DNA of 57,974 bases from NCBI GenBank assembly GCA_003250375.1, contig QKGR01000026.1, forward strand, positions 1 through 57,974, read 5' to 3'. Source of the stretch: Candidatus Shapirobacteria bacterium. GTDB lineage: Bacteria > Patescibacteriota > Microgenomatia > UBA12405. Below the pieces are notes generated by a model. That model ran no database searches. It saw nothing but the letters and a program-made list of their open reading frames with translations, and had not been told where the DNA came from. A program made the position numbers and the translations under genes. Below, piece by piece: positions 5,579 through 52,695 of this stretch (position 1 is the first letter of the stretch; the number at the start of each line of letters is the position of its first letter).

Positions 5579-5603
5579 GGGCGGGTGCAAGACCCGCCCG
5601 TAC
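5579..5603. repeat. family A GC-rich hairpin repeat GGGCGGGTGCAAGACCCGCCCGTAC
   Basis: Stem GGGCGGGT/ACCCGCCC with loop GCAAG. A truncated variant (GGGCGATTCGTGA) lies at 5558-5570. Confidence 0.9.
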
Positions 5604-5639: not shown

Positions 5640-5915
5640 ATGAAGAAATTATTAATAATAGCTTTGGTAGTAGTTAGTGGTTTGGGATTGGGAGGTTGTA
5701 CTAGCAGCGAGCCAAGCGAAAATAAAAGTACGGGAGTAGTGGAAATTAAGGGAACTTTGACGACAAAAATGGGAGATGAATATTTACTTAATACTGAAAG
5801 TGGAATAATAAACATAACAAGCAATATAGTGAATTTAGACAAAGAAATCGGGAAAGAGATTAAGGTAAAAGGAATGTACAGCGGGTCGACCTTGTATGTG
5901 GATGAGATTGAATAA
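5640..5915 (+). CDS. small lipoprotein
   Basis: MKKLLIIALVVVSGLGLGGC is a signal peptide plus lipobox. The track start at 5574 would translate a family A repeat (MKGGCKTRPY), so the internal ATG is preferred. Confidence 0.55.
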   Translation: MKKLLIIALVVVSGLGLGGCTSSEPSENKSTGVVEIKGTLTTKMGDEYLLNTESGIINITSNIVNLDKEIGKEIKVKGMYSGSTLYVDEIE

Positions 5916-5916
5916 G

Positions 5917-5948
5917 TTTGTCAGTTGGTCAGTTTTTCAGATTGTCAG
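5917..5948. repeat. TCAG-type microrepeat, four tandem 8-nt units (TTTGTCAG TTGGTCAG TTTTTCAG ATTGTCAG)
   Basis: Read directly. Lies between two convergent gene ends. Confidence 0.85.
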
Positions 5949-5962
5949 AATAAGAAATGAGT

Positions 5963-7174: not shown

Positions 7175-7206
7175 TTGGTCAGTTAGTCAGTTGATCGGTT
7201 GGTCAG
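7175..7206. repeat. TCAG-type microrepeat, four 8-nt units (TTGGTCAG TTAGTCAG TTGATCGG TTGGTCAG)
   Basis: Read directly in the dnaA-dnaN spacer. Confidence 0.85.
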
Positions 7207-7514
7207 ATTATTGGATGTCGAAAAGAAATTAAGAGATATTGAATAATGAGAATTAACAAAATGTGTATAAGTTTTTGGTTTTTGAAATTTTGAAAATATC
7301 TTATTTACAAAATAGAAGCAGTATTATTAGGGGCGGTGGATATGTTGAGAAGAGAGGTTTTGGGTGGGAAATTGTAGATAAGATAGGGATAATGGATAAA
7401 AAAGTAGTGGTTGAAAAGTGAAAAATGATGGAAAGTGATACGGAAAAGATAGTGTTTGTCTTATAAGTTTGACTGGGGTTGGGGTTTGTTTCGGGGGAAA
7501 AAGAACAACAGTAA

Positions 7515-9147: not shown

Positions 9148-9172
9148 GGGCGGGCGCAAGACCCGCCCGTAC
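9148..9172. repeat. family A hairpin repeat (GGGCGGGCGCAAGACCCGCCCGTAC)
   Basis: Read directly. Confidence 0.9.
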
Positions 9173-9368: not shown

Positions 9369-9393
9369 GGGCGGGTGCAAGACCCGCCCGTAC
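9369..9393. repeat. family A hairpin repeat
   Basis: GGGCGGGTGCAAGACCCGCCCGTAC between rpmH and rnpA. Confidence 0.9.
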
Positions 9394-11375: not shown

Positions 11376-12716
11376 GTGAGGAAAATATTTCTTTTTTTAT
11401 TTTTGCTGTTGATACCAACACAGTTGGGTAGTTTTTTTTGGCCGGAATGGAGCTTGGTGAATGGAATTCGAAGTGATTATTTGTCCCCTACTTTGTACTT
11501 GGTAGATTTGGTGTGGATGGGATGGATTTTGAGTGAAATGTATAGCTATTCAGTTAGTCAGATTGTCGGATTGTCAGAAAGAAAAAGAAAAAAGGAAATT
11601 TTTGATTTTTTGAAAACAAAGAAATGGATACTGATAATGTTGACTGGGGTGGTGGTAGTGGTGAATATACTGATGGCAATAAATTGGCAGGTGGCGATTT
11701 ATAGATGGATAAGAATAGGACAATGGATGGTGACAGTGTGGATGTTGGGAAGATGGAGGAATGAAGGGGCGATTCGCGAATCGCCCGTACAGGAAATTCT
11801 AAGGACAATAATCCCGATTTGGATGATAGTGGAAGGATTGTTGAGTGTGGCCCAGGTGGGAAAAAATGGAAGTTTACAGGGAATATTTTATTGGATTGGT
11901 GAAAGAAAGTTTGATTATATGACGATTGGAACAGCGTTGATGAGCTGGGGTAATGAAGTATTTGTGAGAGCATATGGGAGTTTTTCACATCCGAATAGTT
12001 TGGCTGGTTTTAGTTTGGTGGCGATAATGATGATGAAAACCCTTTCGGCTTCGCCGAATTCCCCTTCAAAAGGGGAAACAAAGATGGTGAAAAGAATTAT
12101 TTGGTGGCTTGGGATTTTTTTTGGAATAGTGATAGTAGTACTGAGTGGAAGCAGGACAGTGTGGGCGCTGGGAGTAATAATATTGGGAGGGCGATTCGTG
12201 AATTGCCCGTACGGAAAAATTAGGGATTGGCAAGATGAATTTTGGAATAAGGGCGGGTGCAAGACCCGCCCGTACAAGGCATTAAGATTTTTTGTTGGAT
12301 TGATGTTATTAATGTTTGTAATTTGGTTTTCTTGGGGAAAGGTTGGTGGTTGGGATAAAGACAGTTGGGGGAAAAGAAAAGATTTGAATAAGGCGGCGTT
12401 TGAAATGATTGAACGAAATCCCCTATTTGGAGTGGGAGCGGGAAATTTTGTGGTGGAAATAGTGAATTATGAAAAGACAGGAATATTGTGGCTACAGCCG
12501 GTGCATAATGTGGTACTGCTAGGATTGAGTGAGATTGGAGTTTTGGGAGTGACTATGGTTTTGATATGGCTGAGTAGAATTAAGAAGATTAGAAAAATTA
12601 AGTTTGAAGGATGGATGATGTTGGGGGCGATATTGGCTTTGGGGATGATGGATCATTATTGGCTGACATTGAGTCAAAATTATTGGCTAATGGCGATAGT
12701 GGTGGCAATAATCTGA
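11376..12716 (+). CDS. O-antigen ligase (Wzy_C/WaaL)-like polytopic membrane protein carrying five in-frame repeat insertions
   Basis: Many TMs, with FSHPNSLAGF and QPVHNVVLLGLSEIGVLG typical of the O-antigen ligase family. The start could also be TTG 11370. Confidence 0.7.
   Translation: MRKIFLFLFLLLIPTQLGSFFWPEWSLVNGIRSDYLSPTLYLVDLVWMGWILSEMYSYSVSQIVGLSERKRKKEIFDFLKTKKWILIMLTGVVVVVNILMAINWQVAIYRWIRIGQWMVTVWMLGRWRNEGAIRESPVQEILRTIIPIWMIVEGLLSVAQVGKNGSLQGIFYWIGERKFDYMTIGTALMSWGNEVFVRAYGSFSHPNSLAGFSLVAIMMMKTLSASPNSPSKGETKMVKRIIWWLGIFFGIVIVVLSGSRTVWALGVIILGGRFVNCPYGKIRDWQDEFWNKGGCKTRPYKALRFFVGLMLLMFVIWFSWGKVGGWDKDSWGKRKDLNKAAFEMIERNPLFGVGAGNFVVEIVNYEKTGILWLQPVHNVVLLGLSEIGVLGVTMVLIWLSRIKKIRKIKFEGWMMLGAILALGMMDHYWLTLSQNYWLMAIVVAII
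11546..11577. repeat. TCAG-type microrepeat inside CDS (CTATTCAG TTAGTCAG ATTGTCGG ATTGTCAG)
   Basis: Translated as YSVSQIVGLS. Confidence 0.7.
11767..11790. repeat. family A variant inside CDS (GGGCGATTCGCGAATCGCCCGTAC)
   Basis: Translated as EGAIRESPVQ. Confidence 0.85.
12036..12080. repeat. family B element inside CDS (AAAACCCTTTCGGCTTCGCCGAATTCCCCTTCAAAAGGGGAAACA)
   Basis: Near-identical to 15283-15326. Translated as KTLSASPNSPSKGET. Confidence 0.9.
12189..12212. repeat. family A variant inside CDS (GGGCGATTCGTGAATTGCCCGTAC)
   Basis: Translated as GRFVNCPY. Confidence 0.85.
12251..12275. repeat. family A canonical copy inside CDS
   Basis: GGGCGGGTGCAAGACCCGCCCGTAC, translated as KGGCKTRPYK. 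Confidence 0.9.
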
Positions 12717-14366: not shown

Positions 14367-17300
14367 ATGAATCAAGGAGGACCAATTGCAATTGTAAACG
14401 GCTGCGAAAATTTTGTGGCTAAATTTTTGGTGGCTGAATTGATTAAAAAGGATATTGAAGTAATAGAAATAGGGGAAGGTGAGGCAAGTAATAGAAGGGT
14501 GAGAAGAATTGACAATGTAGAAGATTTAGTGGAAGAAGTGAACTATGTGTTTGATTTTGAGGAAGATCAGAAAGTGTGGCAAAAAGCGGTGAATGATGAG
14601 GCAAGGTTGGCGATTGTACGAGTGAATAAGAATGATGGGGAGAAGTTTAAGAAAATGTTGTTGAGTTATCATTTTGATTGGAGAGTGTTGGATTTGAATG
14701 GAGTGTACGGAGAAGGAATGGAAAGAGGGTCGAAGGTGGCAAATATATTTGAGAAGGCAGTGAGGAATCAGGTGTTGGAATTGCCGGCAGTAAATTTGGA
14801 AATAAGACTGATGAATGTGGCGGATGCGGTGGAAGCGATATTTAGGGGAACACTGATGTCGGGGACGAGTGAGGAGAATTGGGAAGTGTGGGGTGATAAG
14901 TATATGAGCGGAAAAGTGGCTGAAATAATGTATAGGGGAGCGAAGATGACTAAGAAGGGAGTGAGTGAAAGTGAAGAGTGGAGAGCAAATCTGAGTGATG
15001 AGGAGATAGAAAAGACTTGGGATAAGCTGAGGTGGAAGCCTGAAATTGAATTGGGAGAAGGAGTAAAAAGCACTTTGCAATACTTTTTTGGATTGATTGA
15101 TGAGGAAGCAAGGAAGACCAAGATTGATTCTAAGAGTAAGATTTTGGATTCTAGAAATAAAGAAAGAGAGGCAAAGAGAATGTGGCAGGTGGAAGTGGAG
15201 GAGGGGGAAGAAGAGATGGTAGATGTTAGATCTCAGGAGGAAGAAGAAGATAGATCTCAGATGACAGATAGAGAAGAAAATGAAACCCTTTCGGCTACGC
15301 CGAATTCCCCTTCAAAAGGGGAAACAGAGATAGAATTTGAAGATAAGGATGAAGAGGAAATTGAGGAAGTGGAGGAAGAAGATGAGGTGGGTGAAAGAAT
15401 GTTGCCTCAGAGTGAGACTGGAGGAGAATTTAGAATAAAAAATTCTAAGCTTGAAGAAGAAAGTAAGCCAATTGTGCTGCCTTATGAGGCAAATGAAATT
15501 AAACCAAAAATATTAAAGGAAATTCCCTTGTCTGATAATAGCAGGAGCAGACTGAAGTTTAAGAATAAACCAAAGATTAGACTGAAAATTAATGTGGAGT
15601 GGGAAAAAATAGCAATTTCGATGGGGGTGGTACTGGTGCTGATGTCGATTGTGCCAATATTTACGATTTGGAGAACTTTGGATGTGGTGAAAGACATTGA
15701 GAAAATGCCGGCAATGTTGGAAGAAAAGAAATATGATGAGCTAAGTAATAAAATTGATAGCGATTTACTAAAAATTAAGAAGATTGAAGGAACAATTGAC
15801 GATTTGGCTTTGAAAAGAATTGCTTTGGTGAGAAATTATTATGGTGGGGCGAAGGTGATTGAGGAAGTGTTGGGATTGGCAAGTAGAGGTGTGGAATTGG
15901 CTAAGATGGGGGAGGAATTTAATGAGGGAGTGTTTGGGGAAAAGGAAATTGATTGGAATAAAGAAGTGACGATAATTAATGACAAGCTGTTGGAGTTTGA
16001 AGAGAAGGCAGGTTTGTTGCAGGCAAGACTGGATGGTGATTGGAGCTGGGTGCCAGCCAGATGGCATAATTTGCCAAATAAGGGTAAGAGCCAATTGAGT
16101 GAGGTGAGAGAAATGGTGAGCTTGACTAGAAAAACATTGGATTTTTTGCCGGAGATGATTGGAGCTGATGGAAAGAGAAAAGAGTATTTGGTATTACTCC
16201 AAAACGAAATGGAACTGAGGCCAGGAGGCGGCTTTATAGGCTCTTACGCGATACTTAGTTTTGAAGGAGGTAAATTACTTAACTTCGATGTAAAAGACGT
16301 GTACGAGGCCGATGGACAACTGAAAGGGCATGTGGAACCACCAGAGGAGATTAAAGAATATTTGGGTGAGGCAAGTTGGTACATGAGAGATGCAAATTGG
16401 AAAGCAGCCTTTGGTTCGTCGTCGAAGGATATTCAATGGTTCTTTGAAAAAGAAACAGGAAGAAAAGTAGATGGAGTGATTGGAGTTGATTTGGCAGTGG
16501 CTAAGGAAATATTGAAAGTGACAGGAGAGATTTATATTCCTGATTTTGATGAGAAGATTGGTGCGGATAATTTGTATGAACAGGCTGAATTTTATTCGGA
16601 AACTAAATTCTTCCCAGGGTCGAATCAAAAAGAAAGCTTTTTGGGATTGGTGGGAAGCCAATTGTTTGGAGCAATTAAAGAGACTAGTCCGACAAAGAGA
16701 TTGGAATTGGCCGGAGCGGCGATTGATTTGTTGGAAAGAAATGAAATACAAATAGCTTTGAACGAGAGTAAGATGGCCGCAAAGGTGGCAGAGCTGGGAT
16801 GGGATGGGGGACTTTATGAGGGGAGATGTGCGGGAGAGAATTGTTATACGGATTATGTGTATGTGGTGGAAGCGAATGTGGGTGTGAATAAGGCAAATTT
16901 CTTTTTGTATAGAAATACTGATTTGACGGTGGATTTGTCGAATAATGCAGTGACAAGAGTGCTGAAAATTAATTATGAGAACACAGCAAAGAATACTAAT
17001 TGGCCGGGAGGTGATTATAAGAATTACATGAGAATTTATATTCCAGTGGAGGCTAATTTGGCGGAAGTGTCGATTTATAATCCGGACGATATGACGACAA
17101 AGAGAGTGTACAGAAGTGATGAAATCAAGATTAATCAGGCGGGAAATAAGAAAGAAATAGGATTTTTGGTGAATGTGCCAGTGACGGCGAAGAGGGCGGT
17201 GGAGGTGAGATACACTAGTCAAATTGATTTGGCGAGTAAAGATAAGTTCTCCTATCTTTGTTATGTGCAAAGACAGCCGGGGTATGGAAATAGTGGACTA

Positions 17301-17435: not shown

Positions 17436-17659
17436 AGATTGTACTCATAATAAGCTTTAATCGGACCGATAATCAGCTAGCTGTACCAGATTAATAGACA
17501 GAGTCGGCTGTTATCTACATGCTCGTCGACTACCGAATGAAAACCAAGTCGACTGCGCAAGTTCCTCTTAAAACTTATTAAGATTTATTAGTTGAAATTT
17601 TGTTTTATAAACATGACATAATGGTTTGTGTGTATGTTTATCGGCATAATATTGGCTCA

Positions 17660-17744
17660 TTAAACGAAAATTTGCAGTGCTCGCTACCTTCGGGCTCGGC
17701 GTAAGCTGGCTCGCGTTCGCTGTGCGCTGAAATTTTGTTTAATT
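17660..17744. repeat. family C palindromic element (~85 nt; core GTGCTCGCTACCTTCGGGCTCGGCGTAAGCTGGCTCGCGTTCGCTGTGC)
   Basis: The core is identical to 35378-35467 and 36569-36657. Flanked by imperfect inverted AAATTTT arms. Confidence 0.9.
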
Positions 17745-17768
17745 CGCTACTAGGATTATTGGACAATT

Positions 17769-18083: not shown

Positions 18084-18108
18084 GGGCGGGTGCAAGACCC
18101 GCCCGTAC
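18084..18108. repeat. family A hairpin repeat
   Basis: GGGCGGGTGCAAGACCCGCCCGTAC. Preceded by GATTCTGGATTCTGG microrepeat. Confidence 0.9.
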
Positions 18109-18543: not shown

Positions 18544-20484
18544 ATGATAAAAGAAATGAATAAAAAATTGAAAGAGATGTTGGGAATTAAAAATAATAAA
18601 AAAGTAGCTAAGAAAGAAGAAAATGAGATGGGTTTGCCAAAAGAGGTGATGGATAAATTGCCAAAAGATGTGAAGATTAAGAAAATTACAATTGACAGCT
18701 CGACGATTTTGAGAACAGCTTTGTACGGAGTACTGTTGATTTGGTTGTTTGCAGCGGTAAGAGGGGCAGTGGTGGGAGAAAATGTGAGCCATGTACCTAT
18801 TTCGGAGATTGTGAGCCAAGTTAAGGATGGGAAAGTGGATGAATTGAAAGTAATTGATAATGAAATTGTGGCTAAATTAAAAGATAGCGACAAAGTACTG
18901 ACTTCTTCAAAAGAACAGAATATTTCGATGGCAGAAATTTTGCAAAGCGAGGGAGTGGATATTGCTAATGTGAAAGTAGTAGTAGAGAACAGAGAAATGT
19001 GGAAGATGTTTTTGAGTGCAATTGGAATGTTTTTGACGGTAGGATTGCCAATACTGGTACTAATTTGGTTGTTTAGAAAAATGGGAAGCGGGGCAGGAAA
19101 TGGGGGAATGTTTGGATTTGGAAAATCGCCAGCTAAATTGTTCGTGAAAGGTAAACAAAAAACAACTTTTAAGGATGTGGCAGGAGTGGAAGAGGCTAAA
19201 AAAGATTTGGAAGAAGTAGTAGACTTTTTGAAATTTCCTGAGAAATACATGAAAATGGGAGCCAGAGCACCAAAAGGAGTGTTGCTGGTAGGACCAGCTG
19301 GGGTGGGTAAGACTTTGTTGGCGAAGGCAGTGGCAGGAGAGGCAAATGTGTCCTTTTTCTCGATGGCAGGATCGGAATTTATGGAAATGTTGGTGGGTGT
19401 GGGTGCGGCTAGAGTAAGAGATTTGTTTGGAACAGCGAAAAAAGCCGGAAAGGCAATTATCTTTATTGATGAAATTGATGCGATTGGAAGAATGAGGGGT
19501 GGACTGGATGGCGGCCATGGGGAAAGAGAACAGACTTTGAATCAGATTTTGGTAGAAATGGATGGATTTGAGGCTAATACAGCAGTAGTAGTGTTGGCAG
19601 CAACCAACCGGGGAGACTTGTTGGACCCAGCTTTGATGAGACCAGGAAGATTTGATAGAAGAGTGGTACTGGAAATGCCTGATTTGGAGGCAAGATTGGA
19701 AATGCTAAAGATACATTCCAAAGGAAAACCAATGGATACTGATGTTGATTGGGAAGCGGTAGCTAGAAGAACGGTGGGATTTTCGGGAGCTGATATTGAA
19801 AATATGTTGAATGAGGCGGCAATCGGAGCAGCAAGAGAAAATAAAAAGAAAATTAATATGGAAGAAATTGAAGAGGCAGCTTTGAAAGTCAAGCTGGGGG
19901 CGGCTAAGAAGAGAACCCAAACTGAGGAAGATAAACTGATGACGGCTTACCATGAGGCGGGACACGCAATTGTGAACTATGTGGAAGGACTTGATCCGGT
20001 GCATAGAATTTCGATTGTCTCAAGAGGAATGGCGCTAGGATTCACTTTGGTGCCGCCAAAGAGAGACGAAGTGCACCAGACTAAATCGAATTTAATTAAG
20101 AGAATGGCGATGGCGATGGGTGGAAGAGCGGCGGAAGAGATTGTGTTTGGGGATATTACTACCGGGGCAGCTTCGGATATTTCTCATGTGACTAATATTG
20201 CTAGAAATATGGTGACTGAATGGGGAATGTCGGAATTGGGGCCGGTGAACTGGGGAGCCCAGATTGATATTAATGACTTTGGTAAGGCTTATATGGAGCC
20301 GTCGAAGGTGTCGGATGGGATGCTTGAAAAAGTTGACGAGGAAATTAAAAAATTGGTGAATACGGCTCAAGAAAGAGCTGTTGAAATTCTGAAAGCCAAT
20401 AGAGAAAAGATGGAGAAGATTGCCAAACTTCTGGTGGAAAAAGAAACTTTGGATGATAAAGAATTTGCGAAGATGATGGAGTGA
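18544..20484 (+). CDS. ftsH: ATP-dependent zinc metalloprotease FtsH
   Basis: Walker A GPAGVGKTLLAKA, Walker B IIFIDEIDA, and HEAGHA zinc site. The start was moved from the track TTG 18505 to the in-frame ATG 18544. Confidence 0.95.
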   Translation: MIKEMNKKLKEMLGIKNNKKVAKKEENEMGLPKEVMDKLPKDVKIKKITIDSSTILRTALYGVLLIWLFAAVRGAVVGENVSHVPISEIVSQVKDGKVDELKVIDNEIVAKLKDSDKVLTSSKEQNISMAEILQSEGVDIANVKVVVENREMWKMFLSAIGMFLTVGLPILVLIWLFRKMGSGAGNGGMFGFGKSPAKLFVKGKQKTTFKDVAGVEEAKKDLEEVVDFLKFPEKYMKMGARAPKGVLLVGPAGVGKTLLAKAVAGEANVSFFSMAGSEFMEMLVGVGAARVRDLFGTAKKAGKAIIFIDEIDAIGRMRGGLDGGHGEREQTLNQILVEMDGFEANTAVVVLAATNRGDLLDPALMRPGRFDRRVVLEMPDLEARLEMLKIHSKGKPMDTDVDWEAVARRTVGFSGADIENMLNEAAIGAARENKKKINMEEIEEAALKVKLGAAKKRTQTEEDKLMTAYHEAGHAIVNYVEGLDPVHRISIVSRGMALGFTLVPPKRDEVHQTKSNLIKRMAMAMGGRAAEEIVFGDITTGAASDISHVTNIARNMVTEWGMSELGPVNWGAQIDINDFGKAYMEPSKVSDGMLEKVDEEIKKLVNTAQERAVEILKANREKMEKIAKLLVEKETLDDKEFAKMME

Positions 20485-20490
20485 GATATA

Positions 20491-20662
20491 AGACATGATT
20501 CAAGAAGCATGATGCATGATTCATGAAGAAGACAGAAGACATGATTCAAGAAGCATGATGCATGATTCATGAAGAAGACAGAAGACATGATTCAAGAAGC
20601 ATGATGCATGATTCATGAAGAAGACAGAAGACGTGATTCAAGAAGCATGATACATGAGACAG
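20491..20662. repeat. tandem repeat, 46-bp unit x ~3.7 (AGACATGATTCAAGAAGCATGATGCATGATTCATGAAGAAGACAGA)
   Basis: Unit starts at 20491, 20537, 20583 and 20629. Lies between convergent ftsH and the four-helix-bundle gene. Confidence 0.9.
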
Positions 20663-20665
20663 GAT

Positions 20666-30426: not shown

Positions 30427-30810
30427 TTATGGGCCAGGAATAGTGAAATCGATAATGTTGACGCCGGTGAAATTGTTGATGAAGAGAATGACTAGCCAAG
30501 AAATGACGATGCCGACGAGGCCGACGATGGCCATGGTAAGGGTGGATGAAGCGGCGGCAACTTTCTTTTGATCGTTGCTAGAAAAAAGATAATTGAAACC
30601 GCCAATGATAAACATAATGAAAAAAGCGAGACCAGCGGCATAGGAGATAATCTGGAGAAGATTATAGAAAAGACATTCGAGTCCTTGGATGGTGGCGACG
30701 TCGGTGTTGGCGACACAACGGCCGGTCCAAGCGGTTTGGGCAAAGGATGTTTTGGGGAAAGTGAGGGAAATGAGGGATAGGACAGGTAATAATTTAAGGC
30801 GTTTTAACAT
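30427..30810 (-). CDS. VirB2/TrbC-like T4SS mini-pilin paralogue 1
   Basis: Signal peptide, two TMs, and a shared loop motif GGFNYLFSSNDQKKVAAA. Confidence 0.6.
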   Translation of the reverse strand: MLKRLKLLPVLSLISLTFPKTSFAQTAWTGRCVANTDVATIQGLECLFYNLLQIISYAAGLAFFIMFIIGGFNYLFSSNDQKKVAAASSTLTMAIVGLVGIVISWLVILFINNFTGVNIIDFTIPGP

Positions 30811-30815
30811 GGCAT

Positions 30816-30824
30816 ATTATAGCA
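30816..30824 (-). promoter_or_regulatory. extended -10 box TGCTATAAT (minus strand), 5 nt before ATG 30810
   Basis: Read on the reverse complement. Confidence 0.55.
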
Positions 30825-30828
30825 AAAG

Positions 30829-30852
30829 TTGATCAGATAATCAGTTTGTCAG
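30829..30852. repeat. TCAG-type microrepeat (TTGATCAG ATAATCAG TTTGTCAG)
   Basis: Read directly. Confidence 0.8.
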
Positions 30853-30866
30853 ATAAAAGAAATATG

Positions 30867-30912
30867 AAACCCACCCGCCCTACGGGCACCCTCCCTTGAA
30901 AAAGGAGGGTGG
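30867..30912. repeat. family D element (AAACCCACCCGCCCTACGGGCACCCTCCCTTGAAAAAGGAGGGTGG)
   Basis: Second copy at 52575-52619. Confidence 0.85.
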
Positions 30913-30949
30913 ATGTGAAATATAAAAGGGGAAACTGAGAAAAATTGAA

Positions 30950-30987
30950 GAAACAAAAAAATCCCCCAGGTTGCCCTAGGGGATTTT
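30950..30987 (-). terminator. rho-independent terminator after pilin paralogue 2
   Basis: 8-bp stem AAATCCCC/GGGGATTT plus 3 inner pairs, followed on the minus strand by TTTTTTTGTTT. Confidence 0.55.
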
Positions 30988-30999
30988 GATTGACGAAAA

Positions 31000-31383
31000 T
31001 TAGGCTCCAGTTTGAACTGAGGGAATAGTGAGATTGAGAATGTTGATGCCGAAGACGAGTTCGATGAGCTTAACGATGGCCCAAGCAGCAAAGACAATGG
31101 CCAAACCAATGAGAGCATTGGTAATTTGATTGCGAGCAGCTTCGACATTCTTTTGATCGCCACCAGACATGACCCATTTGAGTCCGCCCCAGACGAGCAT
31201 GAAGAAGAAAACTAAAGCAACGATTAACATGACTAAGGAAATGGCTCCAGAGACTAAGCTAGCAGGAGTGATGTTGGTGAGACCTTCAAATTCACCATTG
31301 GGAGAGAGGTTGAGCTCTCTTTGAGCTAGTGCAGGAACTGCTAAGGCTGCCATTTGGACTTTGTGGGACAGTTTTTTGAACAT
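31000..31383 (-). CDS. VirB2/TrbC-like T4SS mini-pilin paralogue 2
   Basis: Two TMs, with loop WGGLKWVMSGGDQKNVEAA. Confidence 0.6.
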   Translation of the reverse strand: MFKKLSHKVQMAALAVPALAQRELNLSPNGEFEGLTNITPASLVSGAISLVMLIVALVFFFMLVWGGLKWVMSGGDQKNVEAARNQITNALIGLAIVFAAWAIVKLIELVFGINILNLTIPSVQTGA

Positions 31384-31443
31384 TTTGTCTATGTGTTGAT
31401 AAATTTTTAATATAACGGTATTTTAACAGGATTATTGTTATTT

Positions 31444-31806
31444 TTAAAGTGTGAGAGAAGGAAGACTAATTTGGAGATTGGCAAGGTTGTCGAGACCGAA
31501 AGCTAAACCAAGTAATTTGAGAATGGCAAAGATGGAGAAAACAACAACAACTCCGAGAACGGCGTTGGTGAGAGAATTGCGACCTTCTTCGAGCTTCTTG
31601 GCATCACCCTGGGAGGTGATAATACGAATACCACCGTTGATGAAATGATAAACGAAGAAAATTACCGCAATAATGATGAACCAATTGAAGAAAGTTTGGA
31701 CTAAATTTTGAGTGGTAGTAATAGGGTCGGGGTTGCTGGTGCAATTGGGATTAAAAAGAGTATTGCAGACTTCGGCGTAAACTGGTTTGACTAGTTGAAA
31801 ATTCAT
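31444..31806 (-). CDS. VirB2/TrbC-like T4SS mini-pilin paralogue 3
   Basis: Two TMs, with loop INGGIRIITSQGDAKKLEEG. Confidence 0.6.
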   Translation of the reverse strand: MNFQLVKPVYAEVCNTLFNPNCTSNPDPITTTQNLVQTFFNWFIIIAVIFFVYHFINGGIRIITSQGDAKKLEEGRNSLTNAVLGVVVVFSIFAILKLLGLAFGLDNLANLQISLPSLTL

Positions 31807-31812
31807 GTTGAT

Positions 31813-32172
31813 TTAGAGACCTAAGCTGGTGAAGAATCCGTTGAGATCGAGGATGCTTTGAATGCCAGCAAGTCGGCCGAGTAAATTGGTAAGTGTGACA
31901 GCAACAACAACGACGACAATACCGAGAATGCCGTTGGTAATTCTGGTTTTGGCAGCATCGAGACGTTTGGGATCGCCTTGGGAAGAAATGAATTCATAGC
32001 CAGCAAAGATAATTTGGATGGCAAAAAAGATGAAAGCTACGACAGAAAGAACACCAATGACAACACTAATTATTCGTTCCATGGTGACGACTGGAGTGCC
32101 GGTAGGGTCGACACCTGGACCAGTGAGTTGGTAGGTGGCGGCTTGAGCGTAAAGTGTATGAATGAGACTCAT
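31813..32172 (-). CDS. VirB2/TrbC-like T4SS mini-pilin paralogue 4
   Basis: The in-frame ATG 32172 (MSLIHTLYAQAA..) avoids overlap with paralogue 5. Loop FAGYEFISSQGDPKRLDAA. Confidence 0.6.
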   Translation of the reverse strand: MSLIHTLYAQAATYQLTGPGVDPTGTPVVTMERIISVVIGVLSVVAFIFFAIQIIFAGYEFISSQGDPKRLDAAKTRITNGILGIVVVVVAVTLTNLLGRLAGIQSILDLNGFFTSLGL

Positions 32173-32174
32173 AG

Positions 32175-32501
32175 TTAGTTGATAGTAGGATTGAGAATAT
32201 TTAAACCTGTAAGTCGACCGACAACGGCAGCAATGGTGAAGGCAGAGGCGATAATGACTAAACCAAGAATAGCCTGCCAAATTTTTGTCCAGGCTTGTTC
32301 GGTCTTTTTGACGTCGCCGTTGGCGGAAATGTACATGTAGCCAGCGAGGACAAACTGAACGACCATGACAATGCCAGCGATGACAGCGGCAAATTTGAGA
32401 ACATTGCTAAGAAAGAGAAATAAGCCCTGGCCTTGAGTACCAGCAGTGGTGTACTTGCTTAATTGTGTTGGTGCTTGGATGTTGCCGAATATGCCAGCCA
32501 T
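32175..32501 (-). CDS. VirB2/TrbC-like T4SS mini-pilin paralogue 5
   Basis: Two TMs, with loop LAGYMYISANGDVKKTEQA. Confidence 0.6.
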   Translation of the reverse strand: MAGIFGNIQAPTQLSKYTTAGTQGQGLFLFLSNVLKFAAVIAGIVMVVQFVLAGYMYISANGDVKKTEQAWTKIWQAILGLVIIASAFTIAAVVGRLTGLNILNPTIN

Positions 32502-32544
32502 AAATTCAATTTTTAATTTTCAATTTATAATTTTAAATTAGTTT

Positions 32545-32877
32545 CTAAATACCGGAATTGAGAATTCTCATGCCGGTGATGACTTCGACTATCTGAATAA
32601 TAAAGAAAGCTAAGAAAACAACAGCGAAGCCAATTAGAGCGTCGGTAATGATGGCTTGTGCCTGTGCGGACTTTTTGGGGTCGCCACTACCTGCGGAAAT
32701 TATATAGTTAACTCCGCCAAAAATCAAAAGGACAACCAAAAGAACACTAATGACAGCAAAGGAGTTGCGGAGGATGGAGGAGACGAGGACGGAGGCATCG
32801 GAATAGGCGCCGGAGAGATTGACACCATTGGCAATGGGGGTGTCGGAACCGATGTTGACTGCGAGCAGCGATTTCAT
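32545..32877 (-). CDS. VirB2/TrbC-like T4SS mini-pilin paralogue 6
   Basis: Two TMs, with loop FGGVNYIISAGSGDPKKSAQA. TAGAAT (32885-32890, minus strand) lies 7 nt before the ATG. Confidence 0.6.
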   Translation of the reverse strand: MKSLLAVNIGSDTPIANGVNLSGAYSDASVLVSSILRNSFAVISVLLVVLLIFGGVNYIISAGSGDPKKSAQAQAIITDALIGFAVVFLAFFIIQIVEVITGMRILNSGI

Positions 32878-33015: not shown

Positions 33016-33957
33016 ATGAGAAAATATTTAATAGTACTGATGGTAAGTTTGATGTTTGTGGTGGGCGGAAAAAGAGAGGTTTTGGGGGTGGTGGAGCCTG
33101 TGGCTTCCGAAAGTGCGGTTGAAGCAACGATGGCAGCAACAATTGAGCCAACAGCAACTGTGGTTCCAGTGAAAGAAAATATTACTGAACCTGGTGAGAA
33201 AAATGTGAGTTATAGATTGGAGTCGGTACTAGATAGCCAGGAAGTGGGAAAATGGAATGGGTTGAATTCTTTGAAGTGGTTAGTGAGACTAGCGGTGAGC
33301 AGAGGGGTGGCAGCTAATACTATAGTATTGTTGCTTTTGTTGCCAATGGTGGCAACGATTGTGTCGGTGCTGCATTATGTGTTTGGGGTGACTGGATACG
33401 GAATTTTTACCCCAACAATGGTGGCAATTACTTTTTTGGCAACGGGAATTTTTGGAGGATTGGCTTTGTTTGCAATGATTTTGGGAATTTCGATTGTGGC
33501 TAATATGTTTTTGAAGAAGCTGAAATTGCATTTTTGGCCAGCCAGGTCGATGGGTCTGGTATTTATTTCAATAGGAGCTTTCTTGTTGATGATTTTGTCG
33601 TCTTATTTTGAGCTAATTAATTTGTCGAAGGTGTCGATTTTCCCGGTTCTCCTGATGATTTTGTTGGCAGAAGATTTTGTGAGAACCCAGCTAGTGAAGA
33701 GTAAAAGTGAGGCAAAAAAGCTAACGATTGGGACCCTAATTTTGTCGATGGTGGGTGCTTTGGGGATGTCGGTGAGAGTGGTACAAGAATCGGTGATACT
33801 GCACCCAGAGATTGTGATTGTGGCAGTACTGGTAATTAATTTGTGGGTAGGAAGCTACAGTGGGATAAGATTGACTGAAATTGGTAGATTTAAAGAAGCA
33901 GTTAGAGTGAAGAACAAGAAGCAAGATTCAAGATTCAGGATTCAGGATAAAAAATAA
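33016..33957 (+). CDS. 7-TM membrane protein (7TM_transglut-like, without transglutaminase domain; tentative)
   Basis: 313 aa: signal-like N-terminus, a ~90-aa exported part, then 7 hydrophobic helices. First gene of the ATP-grasp cluster. Confidence 0.45.
   Translation: MRKYLIVLMVSLMFVVGGKREVLGVVEPVASESAVEATMAATIEPTATVVPVKENITEPGEKNVSYRLESVLDSQEVGKWNGLNSLKWLVRLAVSRGVAANTIVLLLLLPMVATIVSVLHYVFGVTGYGIFTPTMVAITFLATGIFGGLALFAMILGISIVANMFLKKLKLHFWPARSMGLVFISIGAFLLMILSSYFELINLSKVSIFPVLLMILLAEDFVRTQLVKSKSEAKKLTIGTLILSMVGALGMSVRVVQESVILHPEIVIVAVLVINLWVGSYSGIRLTEIGRFKEAVRVKNKKQDSRFRIQDKK
33925..33947. repeat. 7-nt microrepeat inside CDS 3' end (GATTCAA GATTCAG GATTCAG GA)
   Basis: Translated as DSRFRIQD. 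Confidence 0.75.
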
Positions 33958-35361: not shown

Positions 35362-35377
35362 TATGAAAATACTGCAA

Positions 35378-35467
35378 CTTGATAATAAATTTTTCGTACT
35401 CGCTACCTTCGGGCTCGGCGTAAGCTGGCTCGCGTTCGCTGCGTGCGAAAAATTAATTATCTTCGTT
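35378..35467. repeat. family C palindromic element
   Basis: Same core as 17660-17744. Arms GATAATAAATTTTT / AAAAATTAATTATC. Confidence 0.9.
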
Positions 35468-36568: not shown

Positions 36569-36657
36569 ACTCGATACTAAATTTTTAGTGCTCGCTACCT
36601 TCGGGCTCGGCGTAAGCTGGCTCGCGTTCGCTGTGCTCTAAAAATTTAGTATCTTCG
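36569..36657. repeat. family C palindromic element
   Basis: Arms GATACTAAATTTTTA / TAAAAATTTAGTATC. Core identical to the other copies. Confidence 0.9.
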
Positions 36658-36683
36658 TCTAGATATATATTTAAATAAATAGT

Positions 36684-37667: not shown

Positions 37668-38352
37668 CATTGGAACGTACAAAAGCGTAGTTCCTTCTGA
37701 GGCAGCACTAACCACACCTTATTGTGGAAAATGTGGTGATACTTGTGTGGATACACCAGAATCTTTTGCGGCATGTCCGGCGACAACAAGAGATGATTTT
37801 GAATGTTTGATGGTGGATGGGGTTTGCGAGACGGTGACCATTGGTGATCCTGAAGTGCCGACATTGACGCCAACAGTGGCGGCTCCAACACCATCCGATA
37901 GAGATCAATCTTGTATGGCATGTGGAAGCGAGTGCAAGTGGGTGGTACCAGGAATAGATAGTTGTTTGCCAACTATTGGCAATTTTGTATGTATGGAGCA
38001 GGGGGCAAACTGTGTGGTGAAAGAAGTGTCGTACCAGATTACACCGACGTCGGGTGCACCAACAAGCGATTTAGATGTGTGTGTGGTTTGTGGAACAAAA
38101 GAGTATGGAGATGCAAATTGTGATGGATCGGTGGAATTGGATGATTTTGTAGTATGGAGAGCTGATTATATAAATGGTATGAATAGTAGTTGTACAAATG
38201 GTGACTTTGATGGGGATGGGAGAGTGGAACTGTCTGACTTTGTAATATGGAGGAGTGGGTATATTAATGGACTACCTAAGAAGACATTATCGGGCGAAAT
38301 TGAGAATCCTGGTCCAATTAAACCAACAATTACTGGTTTTGAAGAATATTAA
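37606..38352 (+). CDS. secreted Cys-rich protein with C-terminal paired dockerin-like repeats
   Basis: Signal peptide MMVVVKRSRWIQFLAILAVVSIGTYKSVVPSEA. 2.5 six-Cys modules. DANCDGSVELDDFVVWRADY and NGDFDGDGRVELSDFVIWRSGY. The start overlaps the upstream gene by 62 nt and is uncertain. Confidence 0.55.
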   Translation: MMVVVKRSRWIQFLAILAVVSIGTYKSVVPSEAALTTPYCGKCGDTCVDTPESFAACPATTRDDFECLMVDGVCETVTIGDPEVPTLTPTVAAPTPSDRDQSCMACGSECKWVVPGIDSCLPTIGNFVCMEQGANCVVKEVSYQITPTSGAPTSDLDVCVVCGTKEYGDANCDGSVELDDFVVWRADYINGMNSSCTNGDFDGDGRVELSDFVIWRSGYINGLPKKTLSGEIENPGPIKPTITGFEEY

Positions 38353-47603: not shown

Positions 47604-47617
47604 GTGATAACGGATGA

Positions 47618-47643
47618 GGGCGGACACGTCGGTCCGCCCGTAC
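47618..47643. repeat. family A variant (GGGCGGACACGTCGGTCCGCCCGTAC)
   Basis: Same head and tail as family A, with a different stem-loop. Confidence 0.8.
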
Positions 47644-50156: not shown

Positions 50157-51548
50157 ATGAAGAAAATTTCAGGAACTGTTTTTGTGTGTTCAAATTGTGG
50201 AAATGAATTTAGGAGATGGGCGGGACAGTGCCCGAGTTGTAAGGAATGGAATAGTTTGAAAGAAGTGACAGGGAGAATTTCGGGGACAACATCGAAAGGG
50301 GGAAGAGTACAGAGGTCCTCCCGGACAGAAAATAAAAGTGAGGTCGTAAATTTGGGCCGCCTTCGTCAAAACTCCGGCGAGCCGAGGGAAATTGTAGATG
50401 TGTTTTCGACCAACATAGGGGAATTTGATAGAGTATTGGGTAAGGGAGTTGTTCGAGGAGCAGTGGTGCTGTTTGCGGGAGAGCCAGGGATTGGAAAGTC
50501 GACACTTTTGACGCAACTTGTGGGTAATGTTGGTGGGTTGTATGCGGCAGGAGAGGAGTCGGCGGAGCAGATTGGATTGAGAGTGAAGAGATTGGGTTTG
50601 GATGCAAATAAGTTCGATGTTTTAGGGACAAATTCAATTGATGAAATTATTGAAGTTTTGGAACGAACAAATAAGTTGTACAAATTAGTGGTGGTGGACA
50701 GTATTCAGGTGATGATGGCGTCGGAGGCGAGTGGAGCGACGGGGTCGCCGAGCCAAATTAGGGAAGGAACCTTCCGACTAGTAGAAGCAGCAAAAAGATT
50801 GGGGGTGGCAATTTTTATTGTGGGGCATGTGACCAAAGACGGGGACATTGCCGGACCGAAATTGTTGGAGCATATGGTGGACACGGTACTTTATTTTGAG
50901 GGAGAGAAAAATGGAGACTTGAGAATTTTGAGATGTAGTAAGAATCGATTTGGAAGTAATGATGAGGTGGGAGTGTTCGTGATGGAAGAAAAAGGATTGA
51001 AGGAAATGAGATCGGATGAAATTAATTTGGTTGCGTCGAATGCGATGGCGCCTGGAAAAGTTTTGACGGTGGTGATGGAGGGGAGCAGACCGATGATGGT
51101 GGAGATTCAGGCTTTAGTGACCGAAAGTTTTGGACAGTTTCCAAAAAGAGTATTTTCGGGAGTGGATTTTAATAGAGGACAATTACTGATGGCGGTGGCT
51201 CAGAAGGTGCTGGGAATTCCGATGTATAACCAGGATGTGTATGTGTCGGTGAGTGGAGGACTACGAATTGAAGATACGGGAGCAGATTTGGCAGTGGTGG
51301 GAGCGATATGGAGTAGTTTTAAAAATCAAGCGTTAAAATCCGCCCCTAACCCATCCTTTGACAAGGAGGGGAAAAACGATGGGCAGACACACCGGTCTGC
51401 CCGTACTAATGTTTTGTGTGGGGAAGTGTCGCTTTTGGGAGAAGTGAAGAAAGTACGAGGCTGGGAAAGAAGAAAAAAAGAGGCTGAAAGATTGGGGAGG
51501 AAGATGGTGGAAATAGAGAAATTGGTGGATTTGAAAAAGATGGTTTAA
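50157..51548 (+). CDS. radA: DNA repair protein RadA/Sms, with an in-frame repeat-derived insertion
   Basis: Zinc finger CSNCG..CPSCKEWNS, Walker A GEPGIGKSTLL, KNRFG motif, and a Lon-like C-domain. The track start GTG 50154 is also possible. Confidence 0.9.
   Translation: MKKISGTVFVCSNCGNEFRRWAGQCPSCKEWNSLKEVTGRISGTTSKGGRVQRSSRTENKSEVVNLGRLRQNSGEPREIVDVFSTNIGEFDRVLGKGVVRGAVVLFAGEPGIGKSTLLTQLVGNVGGLYAAGEESAEQIGLRVKRLGLDANKFDVLGTNSIDEIIEVLERTNKLYKLVVVDSIQVMMASEASGATGSPSQIREGTFRLVEAAKRLGVAIFIVGHVTKDGDIAGPKLLEHMVDTVLYFEGEKNGDLRILRCSKNRFGSNDEVGVFVMEEKGLKEMRSDEINLVASNAMAPGKVLTVVMEGSRPMMVEIQALVTESFGQFPKRVFSGVDFNRGQLLMAVAQKVLGIPMYNQDVYVSVSGGLRIEDTGADLAVVGAIWSSFKNQALKSAPNPSFDKEGKNDGQTHRSARTNVLCGEVSLLGEVKKVRGWERRKKEAERLGRKMVEIEKLVDLKKMV
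51330..51410. repeat. 81-nt repeat-derived insertion inside radA (hairpin TCCTTTGACAAGGA + family A variant GGGCAGACACACCGGTCTGCCCGTAC at 51381-51406)
   Basis: Encodes ALKSAPNPSFDKEGKNDGQTHRSARTN between conserved RadA blocks. Confidence 0.8.
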
Positions 51549-51579: not shown

Positions 51580-51634
51580 AAACCCTTTGGCCTTCGACAA
51601 GCTCAGGCCATTCCCCTTCAAAAGGGGAAACGGA
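51580..51634. repeat. family B variant (AAACCCTTTGGCCTTCGACAAGCTCAGGCCATTCCCCTTCAAAAGGGGAAACGGA)
   Basis: The head matches 9748-9783. The tail matches 12061-12080. Confidence 0.8.
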
Positions 51635-51676
51635 GGGGGAAAATGAGTAAGAATTTGATGAATCAAAATTTCTAAA

Positions 51677-51701
51677 GGGCGGGCGCAAGACCCGCCCGTA
51701 C
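51677..51701. repeat. family A hairpin repeat
   Basis: GGGCGGGCGCAAGACCCGCCCGTAC. Confidence 0.9.
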
Positions 51702-52574: not shown

Positions 52575-52619
52575 AAACCACCCACCCTGCGGGCACCCTC
52601 CCTTGAAAAGGGAGGGCTG
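52575..52619. repeat. family D element, second copy
   Basis: AAACCACCCACCCTGCGGGCACCCTCCCTTGAAAAGGGAGGGCTG. Confidence 0.85.
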
Positions 52620-52630
52620 AAAAAAGAGAA

Positions 52631-52695
52631 AAACCCTTTCGGCTGCGCCGAATTCCCCCTACCTCAACGGCAGGCAAGCTTCAAAAGGGGAAACA
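52631..52695. repeat. family B element with ~20-nt internal insertion
   Basis: AAACCCTTTCGGCTGCGCCGAATTCCCC[CTACCTCAACGGCAGGCAAGC]TTCAAAAGGGGAAACA. Confidence 0.8.

What the first reader, a model, noticed from the sequence alone, without database searches (positions are those of the whole stretch)
11546..12275. One O-antigen-ligase-like gene tolerates five repeat insertions, with family A read in all three frames
Seen: the CDS 11376..12716 stays open although it contains five elements. These are a TCAG microrepeat (11546-11577), a family A variant (11767-11790), a family B element (12036-12080), a second family A variant (12189-12212) and a canonical family A copy (12251-12275). The three A copies start at codon positions 2, 1 and 3 and are read as EGAIRESPVQ, GGRFVNCPYG and KGGCKTRPYK. 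All of them lie between hydrophobic segments, that is, in predicted loops. Inference: the elements seem to be selected, or filtered, to lack stops in several frames, so they can persist in loops of membrane proteins. Alternatively the gene is a decaying pseudogene that happens to remain open.
Basis: partly seen in the sequence, partly recalled or inferred. Interest (0 to 1): 0.65.

Follow-up and report, generated by a model that had tools for sequence, protein, structure and literature searches.

The report
Hairpin repeats translated inside membrane-protein gene
A conserved, apparently working membrane-protein gene of an uncultured "Shapirobacteria" bacterium carries several copies of the genome's small GC-rich hairpin repeats, translated as extra loop residues; this is already known from Rickettsia and other REP-rich bacteria, and I found no report of it in this group.

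Summary
ORF 11376-12716 is an intact Wzy_C/WaaL-like gene in conserved synteny. It contains three hairpin+GTAC elements (family A) read in codon phases 2, 1 and 3, one two-hairpin element (family B), and an 8-nt-period TCAG microrepeat. All five lie in loops of a confident AlphaFold model; by inference these are the cytoplasmic loops.

Family A fits the REP pattern: on the minus strand it reads GTAC followed by a 20-22 nt palindrome. All ten copies in the window lie on the G-rich strand. Six are intergenic, three are in this gene and one is in radA.

Orthologues from other Shapirobacteria carry A- or B-type elements in the same gene, at the same or different loops, with a patchy phylogenetic distribution. 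Even close relatives differ at one loop. The inserts are therefore not ancestral loops, and the gene is very unlikely to be a pseudogene.

"Selected to lack stops" is not needed for family A: composition-matched shuffles are stop-free in all six frames 12-46% of the time. The TCAG repeat has stops in four frames. Purifying selection after insertion explains the pattern.

Intragenic REPs and RPEs are already described, so this is a new member of a known kind. How the elements spread is not shown: no transposase is in the window.

The parts
11376..12716 (+). Host gene: Wzy_C / WaaL-like polytopic membrane protein, 446 aa, intact
   Evidence: Pfam PF04932, E 2.3e-10. 2149 homologues, the best only about 40-48% identical. 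AlphaFold pLDDT 84; the only significant PDB fold hit is WaaL 7tpg_B, E 4.9e-4. Conserved synteny rnpA-yidC-jag-Wzy_C-flippase-DUF4012.
11546..11581 (+). TCAG microrepeat: four 8-nt units (TCAGNTTG), read SYSVSQIVGLSE at the end of helix 42-65 and the following turn
   Evidence: Similar arrays at 5913, 7179, 30825 and 50086, all on the + strand. No hairpin, z +0.46. Stops in 4 of 6 frames. The loop is length-variable in all orthologues. Its origin as an insertion is not shown.
11765..11790 (+). A1: REP-like hairpin GGGCGATT-cgcg-AATCGCCC plus GTAC, codon phase 2, read GAIRESPVQ, loop 131-136
   Evidence: RNA fold -13 kcal/mol. A 7-residue insertion found in fewer than 10% of 119 orthologues.
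12037..12085 (+). Family B: AAACCC leader plus hairpin TTCGGC-ttc-GCCGAA plus hairpin TTCCCCTT-ca-AAGGGGAA, read TLSASPNSPSKGET, loop 225-235
   Evidence: Twin copy at 15283-15331 inside the DUF4012 CDS. Intergenic relatives at 51580 and 52631.
12187..12212 (+). A2: decaying copy of the A1 subfamily (two C-to-T changes on the + strand), codon phase 1, read GRFVNCPY, start of loop 276-298
   Evidence: Fold -10.7 kcal/mol; the stem change gives a G-U wobble. pLDDT below 50 for residues 278-289.
12249..12275 (+). A3: canonical family A, AAGGGCGGGTGCAAGACCCGCCCGTAC, codon phase 3, read KGGCKTRPY, loop 276-298
   Evidence: Identical to the intergenic copies. Fold -18.4 kcal/mol, z -4.6. Part of an 11-residue insertion absent from orthologues.
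5579..5603 (+). Intergenic canonical A copy, preceded by a truncated A1/A2-type half
9148..9172 (+). Intergenic canonical A copy in the dnaA-rnpA spacer
9369..9393 (+). Intergenic canonical A copy in the dnaA-rnpA spacer
18084..18108 (+). Intergenic canonical A copy, 16 nt after the stop of the RNHCP gene
47618..47643 (+). Intergenic A-type variant GGGCGGAC-acgtcg-GTCCGCCC plus GTAC
51337..51406 (+). Two adjacent elements (B-like hairpin, then A-type GGGCAGAC..GTCTGCCC plus GTAC) in frame inside radA
   Evidence: About 21 extra residues compared with S. pneumoniae RadA 5lkm/8rxc at this point. Hairpins shown.
51677..51701 (+). Intergenic canonical A copy downstream of radA
15283..15331 (+). 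Family B copy in frame in the acidic linker of the DUF4012 protein, read TLSATPNSPSKGET
51580..51636 (+). Intergenic B-type copy with a different first hairpin
52576..52695 (+). Two intergenic B-type copies (52576-52616 and 52631-52695)
30867..30911 (+). Intergenic B-type copy on the + strand inside a cluster of minus-strand genes

Best explanation
The gene is a functional Wzy_C/WaaL-like membrane protein whose poorly conserved loops have been colonised by the genome's small dispersed hairpin repeats.

Family A belongs to the REP type: a 20-22 nt GC-rich palindrome next to a conserved tetranucleotide. Here the tag is GTAC; related genomes have GTAG or GTAT. Family B is a two-hairpin element with an AAACCC leader.

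Copies arise anywhere. Those inside genes survive only if three conditions hold: the net length change keeps the frame, the frame being read has no stop, and the extra 4-16 residues fall where the protein tolerates them. That is why the survivors sit in short loops that I infer to be cytoplasmic, and in linkers. It is also why a GC-rich element with almost no stop codons can be found in any codon phase.

After insertion, copies decay under the genome's strong C-to-T bias on this strand; A2 is an example. Loops are also overwritten by other elements.

How the copies spread is inferred, not shown. The most likely route is a hairpin-recognising, single-strand-specific HUH/Y1 (RAYT-like) enzyme acting in trans. 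This would fit the strict single orientation of all copies on the G-rich strand.
For: Shown:
- A copies are exact repeats of intergenic copies, 6 against 0 expected. All ten hairpin+GTAC elements are on the + strand.
- Stems differ between subfamilies by compensatory changes, while GGGC..GCCC+GTAC stays constant.
- The tag-plus-palindrome layout matches the published definition of REP (PMC8266576).
- Two orthologous loci hold hairpin+CTAC copies, which is GTAG on the other strand, one inside Wzy_C and one intergenic.
- Six of ten copies are intergenic although only 15% of the window is intergenic, P = 0.002.
- The inserts are absent from most of 119 orthologues.
- All 54 invariant columns are kept. 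Divergence relative to neighbouring genes is normal, ratio 0.97 against 0.93-1.11.
- The elements lie in loops of a confident model with a WaaL-like fold. These loops are K/R-rich, and the conserved loops 12-41, 164-205 and 320-378 are untouched.
- Orthologues in nine other assemblies carry A- or B-type elements in this gene at the same or other loops.
- About 50 of 120 orthologues carry such peptides, with a patchy distribution on the tree.
- Relatives with 84-88% nucleotide identity differ at one loop: an A-type, a B-type, or a short AT-rich loop.
- RadA and DUF4012 in the window also carry in-frame copies.
- Freedom from stops is what the composition predicts.
- A2 differs from A1 by two C-to-T changes on the C-poor strand.
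- Intragenic REPs, including several per ORF, are documented elsewhere (PMC3733652).
Against: - No transposase of any kind is in the window or in the fetched flanks (gene tables).
- No inverted REP pairs (BIME/REPIN) occur in the window.
- No clean filled-versus-empty footprint could be obtained. Net length differences (+21, +12, +33 nt; +18 nt for L012 against L013) are multiples of three but do not equal the element lengths.
- The window protein departs from 16 of 112 highly conserved positions, the second-lowest score of 120. These include H20F, Q188L and G253I, so some loss or change of function cannot be excluded.
- Recurrent use of the same two or three loops, and a preferred reading frame in orthologues (KPS... 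for B...PP[VIL]Q for A), are not fully explained by passive filtering.
- The TCAG microrepeat is not shown to be an insertion.
Confidence: 0.75

Rival explanations
1. The hairpins inside the gene are kept by selection for a function of their own. Possible functions are RNA structures that slow translation between transmembrane segments or stabilise the mRNA, DNA sites for a hairpin- or tag-binding protein, or useful loop peptides.
For: - The same loops are occupied in many orthologues, and B-type copies are mostly read in one frame (10 of 14 copies start at codon position 1).
- The first hairpin of the B type varies in sequence but always stays a hairpin.
- The same A hairpin (GGGCGGG-loop-CCCGCCC) is kept in distant Shapirobacteria and even in unrelated high-GC contigs.
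- The stem change in A2 leaves a G-U pair.
- Stable structures, -13 to -18 kcal/mol.
Against: - Most orthologues lack each given insert, and presence is patchy.
- Close relatives swap A for B, or have a short AT-rich loop, at the same site.
- In this gene A is read in three different phases, so no single peptide is conserved.
- Inserts occur in unrelated proteins.
- Conservation of hairpins across copies is also what a structure-specific mobilising enzyme would produce.
Confidence: 0.15
2. The gene is a young pseudogene that happens still to be open, so repeats accumulate in it freely.
For: - Three of the four A copies that lie in CDSs are in this one gene; P about 1e-4 for a given gene, 0.004 after correcting for 42 genes.
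- The protein has the second-lowest match of 120 to highly conserved positions, 96 of 112. Non-conservative changes include H20F, Q188L, G253I and F322K.
Against: - The ORF is open over 446 codons where the chance per-codon stop frequency is about 8% (my calculation from the composition).
- All 54 invariant columns are kept.
- Divergence relative to orthologues is no greater than for yidC, jag, ftsH or the flippase.
- Every insert lies in a loop and none is in a conserved segment.
- Orthologues in nine other assemblies carry similar inserts and are also intact.
- Only one assembly of this exact gene exists, so read-level frameshifts could not be checked.
Confidence: 0.06
3. The segments are ancestral loops of the protein family whose GC-rich palindromic look arose by convergence, not by insertion of repeats.
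For: The family-B loop and loop 1 vary in length in all orthologues, and many carry similar peptides such as KPSALRAPPLTGR.
Against: - A3 is base-for-base identical to intergenic copies, and B has a 96% twin in another gene.
- One orthologue has the same 48 nt twice in one gene.
- The same elements occur in intergenic DNA and in unrelated genes of the same contigs.
- Columns at A1, A2 and A3 are filled in fewer than 10% of orthologues.
Confidence: 0.03

Closest known systems
Intragenic REPs of the GTAG-tagged superfamily (Di Nocera, De Gregorio and Rocco 2013, PMC3733652; REP definition in PMC8266576)
   Same: - A short GC-rich palindrome next to a conserved tetranucleotide.
- Dispersed, and mostly downstream of ORFs.
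- Some copies lie wholly inside ORFs of known proteins, sometimes twice in one ORF.
- DNA-repair genes are among the hosts; here radA.
- Those authors also argued that such inserts are neutral because they sit in loops or linkers.
   Different: - The tag in this window is GTAC, not GTAG. GTAG is seen in a related locus.
- All copies are singletons in one orientation on the G-rich strand. There are no head-to-head dimers, no BIMEs, and no RAYT in view.
- The host is a small-genome CPR bacterium with about 40% GC and extreme GC skew.
- Five elements from three families sit in one 1.3-kb gene.
Rickettsia palindromic elements (RPE; Ogata et al. 2000 and 2002, from my own knowledge; cited in PMC3733652)
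   Same: Palindromic repeats are inserted in frame in many functional genes of a reduced genome. They are translated, and are thought to sit at permissive surface positions.
   Different: RPE-1 is about 100-150 bp, against 24-50 nt here. There is no sequence relationship, and the lineage is different. RPEs have no tetranucleotide-tag architecture, apart from the short RPE-4 and RPE-6, which Di Nocera et al. class as CGTC REPs.
IS200/IS605 and REP/RAYT single-strand 'peel and paste' systems (PMC8266576; PMC6006769)
   Same: A hairpin plus an adjacent guide tetranucleotide is the recognition unit. Strict strand specificity is expected if single-stranded DNA at the replication fork is the substrate.
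   Different: No HUH/Y1 gene was found in the 58-kb window or in about 150 kb of related loci. No cleavage sites or target motif could be defined. This is a working model only.
Very small dispersed repeats of cyanobacteria (Elhai et al. 2008) and GC clusters in yeast mitochondrial var1 (both from my own knowledge, not checked here)
   Same: Elements of about 20-50 nt, hairpin-forming and GC-rich relative to the genome, that occur within coding sequence without breaking the frame.
   Different: Unrelated sequences and hosts.

Membership tests
REP (repetitive extragenic palindrome), GTAG-tagged superfamily | [quoted passage not shown] | tested here: met
   On the minus strand all ten copies read GTAC followed by a 20-22 nt palindrome with perfect 8-bp stems. 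Related loci have GTAG (L009), and GTAC or GTAT (L005, L006). The tag here is a variant, not GTAG itself.
REP (repetitive extragenic palindrome), GTAG-tagged superfamily | Many dispersed copies per genome | tested here: inconclusive
   Ten copies in 58 kb. The rest of the genome was not found in the genome or metagenome collections.
REP (repetitive extragenic palindrome), GTAG-tagged superfamily | Mostly intergenic, typically just downstream of ORFs | tested here: met
   Six of ten copies are intergenic against 15% intergenic space, P = 0.002. However, four of ten are inside CDSs.
REP (repetitive extragenic palindrome), GTAG-tagged superfamily | Frequent inverted pairs (BIME / REPIN) | tested here: not met
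   All ten window copies, and all A-type copies in related loci, have the same orientation. An inverted doublet was seen only in an unrelated high-GC contig, L003.
REP (repetitive extragenic palindrome), GTAG-tagged superfamily | A cognate RAYT / TnpA-REP gene flanked by REPs (REPtron) | tested here: inconclusive
   No Y1_Tnp or other transposase domain in any of about 45 ORFs of the window, or in the gene tables of the fetched loci. The whole genome is not available.
Rickettsia palindromic elements (RPE) | Rickettsia-specific repeat families of roughly 100-150 bp inserted in frame | tested here: not met
   The elements here are 24-50 nt and come from a CPR bacterium. The resemblance is in behaviour only.
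Wzy_C / O-antigen ligase-like (host gene) | Match to Pfam PF04932 above the curated threshold | tested here: met
   40.9 bits against a cutoff of 31.7, E 2.3e-10, residues 248-397.
Wzy_C / O-antigen ligase-like (host gene) | WaaL-like polytopic fold | tested here: met
   AlphaFold pTM 0.86. The only PDB hit with E below 0.001 is WaaL 7tpg_B, TM 0.46-0.50.
Wzy_C / O-antigen ligase-like (host gene) | Glycan ligase or polymerase activity | not testable with these tools
   All 54 columns invariant among the 120 aligned sequences are kept, but 16 of 112 highly conserved positions differ.

The most novel reading that the evidence does not exclude
In Shapirobacteria, and perhaps more widely in CPR bacteria, strand-locked hairpin elements are targeted to, or actively retained in, specific cytoplasmic loops and linkers. 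The elements are a REP-like GTAC/GTAG family and a two-hairpin AAACCC family. Under this reading, rapid element turnover is a main source of new loop sequence in these reduced genomes. The hairpins themselves might be used, for example as translation pause sites between transmembrane segments. The same 21-nt A hairpin in unrelated high-GC bacteria would then point to exchange of a REP/enzyme system between CPR cells and their hosts or neighbours.
Probability: 0.15. Interest if true: 0.7.

Novelty: new member of a known kind. Interest (0 to 1): 0.45.

Why it matters
- It shows that the odd GC-rich stretches in this gene are neither sequencing errors nor signs of gene decay. Annotators of CPR genomes should expect translated repeats in real genes.
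- It extends the "protein-decorating palindrome" phenomenon of Rickettsia and REP-rich proteobacteria to the Candidate Phyla Radiation. My literature searches found no report of it there.
- The many orthologous loci with different elements in the same loops offer a natural experiment. They show which loops of a WaaL-like protein tolerate insertions, and how repeats seed new loop sequence.
- The strict one-strand orientation in a genome with extreme GC skew gives a direct way to test whether such elements insert into single-stranded DNA at the replication fork.

Tried and rejected
1. I looked for the rest of the genome or close relatives by scanning genome and metagenome collections with the exact A 25-mer. 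This found only four unrelated high-GC contigs. No near-identical orthologue exists; the best is about 48%. A precise empty-site comparison for the window's own inserts was therefore impossible.

2. I tried filled-versus-empty comparisons in related genomes: L012 against L013 at 84.5% nucleotide identity, and L014 against L015 at 88%. They show different occupants of the same loop, but no clean boundaries or target duplications.

3. I scanned all window ORFs for a transposase or RAYT. None was found.

4. I tested the idea that A copies are intrinsic terminators. Only one of ten is followed by a T run, so I rejected this as a general explanation.

5. I tested 'selected stop-free design' with composition-matched shuffles. 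It is not needed for family A.

6. I tested for gene-specific accelerated divergence as a pseudogene signal. None was found, although conserved-site matches are low.

7. I considered that the B-type peptides (KPS..PLTGR) are a conserved protein motif. I rejected this because the same DNA occurs in intergenic regions and unrelated genes, and twice identically in one gene.

8. The TCAG microrepeat could not be explained. It has no structure, no known motif and no Rfam family.
Full report
**What is in the sequence**

The window is a bacterial contig with about 40% GC and a very strong, uniform GC skew of +0.2 to +0.55. The + strand has 29% G and 11% C in its genes. It carries dnaN, dnaA, rnpA, yidC and jag, followed by the ORF in question. 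Names attached to homologues place the contig in Candidatus Shapirobacteria, a CPR lineage.

The ORF runs from GTG 11376 (or TTG 11370) to the stop at 12716. The 446-aa product is identical to a protein in the public collection. It matches Pfam Wzy_C above threshold. It folds with pLDDT 84 and pTM 0.86 into a polytopic membrane protein whose only significant PDB neighbour is the O-antigen ligase WaaL, 7tpg_B.

**Check of the observation**

The A copies begin at codon positions 2, 1 and 3 and are read GAIRESPVQ, GRFVNCPY and KGGCKTRPY.

The canonical A 25-mer occurs six times in the window, against none expected. The 3' core GCCCGTAC occurs eleven times against 0.36 expected, always on the + strand. 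Ten of these are perfect 8-bp-stem hairpins followed by GTAC, and one lies in 23S rRNA.

| Location | A-type copies (start coordinate) |
|---|---|
| Intergenic | 5579, 9148, 9369, 18084, 47618, 51677 |
| In the Wzy_C gene | 11767 (A1), 12189 (A2), 12251 (A3) |
| In radA | 51381 |

Family B is two adjacent hairpins behind an AAACCC leader. It has a 96% twin inside the DUF4012 gene at 15283, and variants in intergenic DNA.

The "TCAG microrepeat" is four 8-nt units. It resembles four other arrays in the window, forms no structure, and has stops in four of six frames.

**Are they insertions in a live gene?**

I aligned the protein with 119 homologues.
- A1 corresponds to 7 residues that fewer than 10% of homologues have.
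- A2 corresponds to 4 such residues and A3 to 11.
- B and the TCAG repeat lie in loops that vary in length in every sequence.

In the model the elements occupy the end of helix 42-65 and the following turn, loop 131-136, loop 225-235 and loop 276-298. The last has pLDDT below 50. These loops and their flanks are rich in Lys and Arg. The strongly conserved loops 12-41, 164-205 and 320-378 are untouched. By the positive-inside rule I infer that the inserts sit in the cytoplasmic loops and that the catalytic outer face is spared.

Several results argue that the gene is alive.
- It keeps all 54 columns that are invariant across the 120 sequences.
- Its position in the conserved gene order rnpA-yidC-jag-Wzy_C-flippase-DUF4012 is the same in every related locus fetched.
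- Its divergence from four orthologues, relative to their divergence from each other, is the same as for its neighbours: ratio 0.97 against 0.93-1.11.

One caution applies. It matches only 96 of 112 positions that are at least 90% conserved in the others, the second-lowest of 120. Some of the changes are non-conservative. A decaying pseudogene is therefore very unlikely, but some functional drift is possible.

**What the elements are**

Read on the minus strand, family A is GTAC followed directly by a 20-22 nt palindrome. [quoted passage not shown]

Subfamilies differ in the stem by compensatory changes: GGGCGGGT/ACCCGCCC, GGGCGATT/AATCGCCC, GGGCGGAC/GTCCGCCC and GGGCAGAC/GTCTGCCC. The outer GGGC..GCCC and the tag stay constant.

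Related Shapirobacteria loci hold the same kind of element:

| Locus | Element | Position |
|---|---|---|
| L009 | Hairpin+CTAC (GTAG on the other strand) | Inside Wzy_C and intergenic |
| L006 | AAGGGCGGATATAGGAATCCGCCC[G/A]TAC | Twice in Wzy_C at other loops, further copies intergenic |
| L005 | GGGCGGATACAGGGATCCGCCCATAC | Same loop as the window's A1 |
| L012, L014 | The window's own hairpin (GGGCGGGCACAAGACCCGCCC) plus TTAC | Yet another loop |

The exact canonical 25-mer also turns up in four unrelated high-GC contigs, next to ordinary GTAG-type hairpins.

The B-type element (AAACCCTC, a variable hairpin, then a CCTCCCTT-loop-AAGGGAGG hairpin) is dispersed in several loci. It occurs in both "hot" loops of Wzy_C, in a VirB4-like ATPase, in DUF4012, at the end of the flippase gene, and in intergenic DNA.

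All A-type copies found are on the G-rich strand, as are all but one doubtful B-type match. For A this is 17 of 17, P about 1.5e-5.

**How general is it?**

Simple peptide patterns find A-type segments in 9 of 120 orthologues, B-type segments in 35, and some element-derived segment in about 50. On a neighbour-joining tree these are patchy: 7 changes for 9 presences of A, and 16 for 23 and 13 for 20 for B in the two loops.

Close relatives differ at the same loop. L014 has an A-type where L015, 88% identical in DNA, has a B-type. L012 has the A-type where L013, 84.5% identical, has a short AT-rich loop.

The loops are therefore sites of repeated gain and replacement, not ancestral sequence.

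In the window itself, the soluble RadA carries two adjacent elements in frame, about 21 extra residues compared with the solved S. pneumoniae RadA. DUF4012 carries a B copy in its acidic linker. The phenomenon is thus not special to membrane loops.

For family A no special selection is needed. Sequences shuffled to the same composition are stop-free in all six frames with probability 0.12-0.46. A2 has acquired a TGA in one frame, B has one closed frame, and the TCAG repeat has four. B-type variants in other genomes carry TGA or TAA in one forward frame (sequences).

The simplest account is filtering after insertion. Copies inside genes persist only if the frame is kept, the frame being read is open, and the site is permissive. 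This matches two observations:
- A copies are depleted within genes: 4 of 10 in CDSs, although about 80% of the window is coding.
- Every surviving copy lies in a loop or linker.

Di Nocera et al. reached the same view for intragenic REPs in other bacteria, and noted multiple inserts per ORF and hosts among DNA-repair genes (PMC3733652).

**Mechanism: shown and inferred**

Shown:
- The elements are copy-identical dispersed hairpins.
- They are strand-locked and enriched in intergenic DNA.
- They are present in frame in several intact genes and turn over quickly between relatives.

Inferred: they spread through a structure-specific single-strand enzyme of the RAYT/IS200 type, whose substrates are a hairpin plus a guide tetranucleotide (PMC8266576, PMC6006769). 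I could not find such a gene in the window or in about 150 kb of related loci (and the gene tables). There are also no inverted REP pairs, so full membership of the REP/RAYT system is not established.

A2 differs from A1 by two C-to-T changes on the C-poor strand. This fits neutral decay under the genome's mutation bias.

**What remains unexplained**
- Why this gene is hit so often. Three of the four A copies in CDSs are here, corrected P about 0.004.
- Why the same two or three loops recur.
- Why orthologues mostly read B as KPS... and A as ...PP[VIL]Q.

These points leave room for target preference, or for selection on the hairpins themselves.

**Verdict**

The phenomenon is a new instance, in a CPR lineage, of translated REP- or RPE-like palindromes, which are already known. 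I found no paper describing it for CPR/Patescibacteria. Interest is moderate.

Noticed in passing
window 1-57974; DnaA boxes at 7515, 7527, 7547, 7650 (minus strand) and 9080 (plus strand): GC skew stays strongly positive on both sides of dnaA and dnaN. There is no sign change at the cluster of perfect TTATCCACA boxes in the dnaA-dnaN spacer. Minus-strand genes are C-rich on their own coding strand. So either replication does not start here or the skew has another cause.
   Followed up: partly
window 5913-5949, 7179-7210, 11550-11581, 30825-30856, 50086-50105: A family of 8-nt-period microrepeats, (G)TCAGNTTG repeated 3-4 times, all on the + strand and usually followed by an A-rich stretch. 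One is translated inside the Wzy_C gene. No structure and no known motif.
   Followed up: partly
window 20484-20665; 33926-33948; 41273-41300: A 46-nt tandem repeat (four copies) sits directly after the ftsH stop. Short GATTCAxG-type microrepeats also occur, one of them inside the GH18 glycosidase CDS 40379-41563.
   Followed up: no
window 50154-51548, elements at 51337-51406: radA carries two adjacent hairpin elements in frame in its C-terminal Lon-like domain, about 21 extra residues compared with S. pneumoniae RadA.
   Followed up: yes
window 35965-36045 and 57720-57795: A repeat of about 72 nt with terminal inverted ends (ACGAAxTTTTG ... CGGAAAAxTTGT). One copy is inside the RimK-like CDS 35500-36558 and one is intergenic. 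They are nearly identical over the core.
   Followed up: partly
window 17658-17747, 35377-35466, 36569-36658; also 47083-47182 and 47505-47604: Two further intergenic repeat families. One is a 90-nt GC-rich core flanked by AT-rich inverted ends (three copies). The other is a 100-nt repeat (two copies, 96% identical) downstream of 5S rRNA.
   Followed up: no
window 40090-40117 and about 40178-40204: The 3' end of tRNA-Ile (GAT) is duplicated about 90 nt downstream, as at the attachment site of an integrated element. A B-type hairpin follows at 40304.
   Followed up: no
L001 6340-6403, L003 6207-6257, L004 1630-1710: The exact family-A 25-mer of this 40%-GC CPR genome occurs in unrelated contigs. 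L001, measured at 62% GC, is labelled an Anaerolineales MAG. The copies sit beside GTAG-type REP hairpins, and L003 has an inverted doublet.
   Followed up: partly
window 30427-32877 (minus strand): A run of six small genes with the type IV secretion pilin domain (PF18895). Related loci have VirB4/TraG-like ATPases upstream of dnaN.
   Followed up: no
window 38096-38262, 53981-54141, 55509-55669, 57534-57694: Dockerin/EF-hand-like repeat pairs at the C termini of four large secreted-looking proteins. These account for direct-repeat families D1-D3.
   Followed up: no
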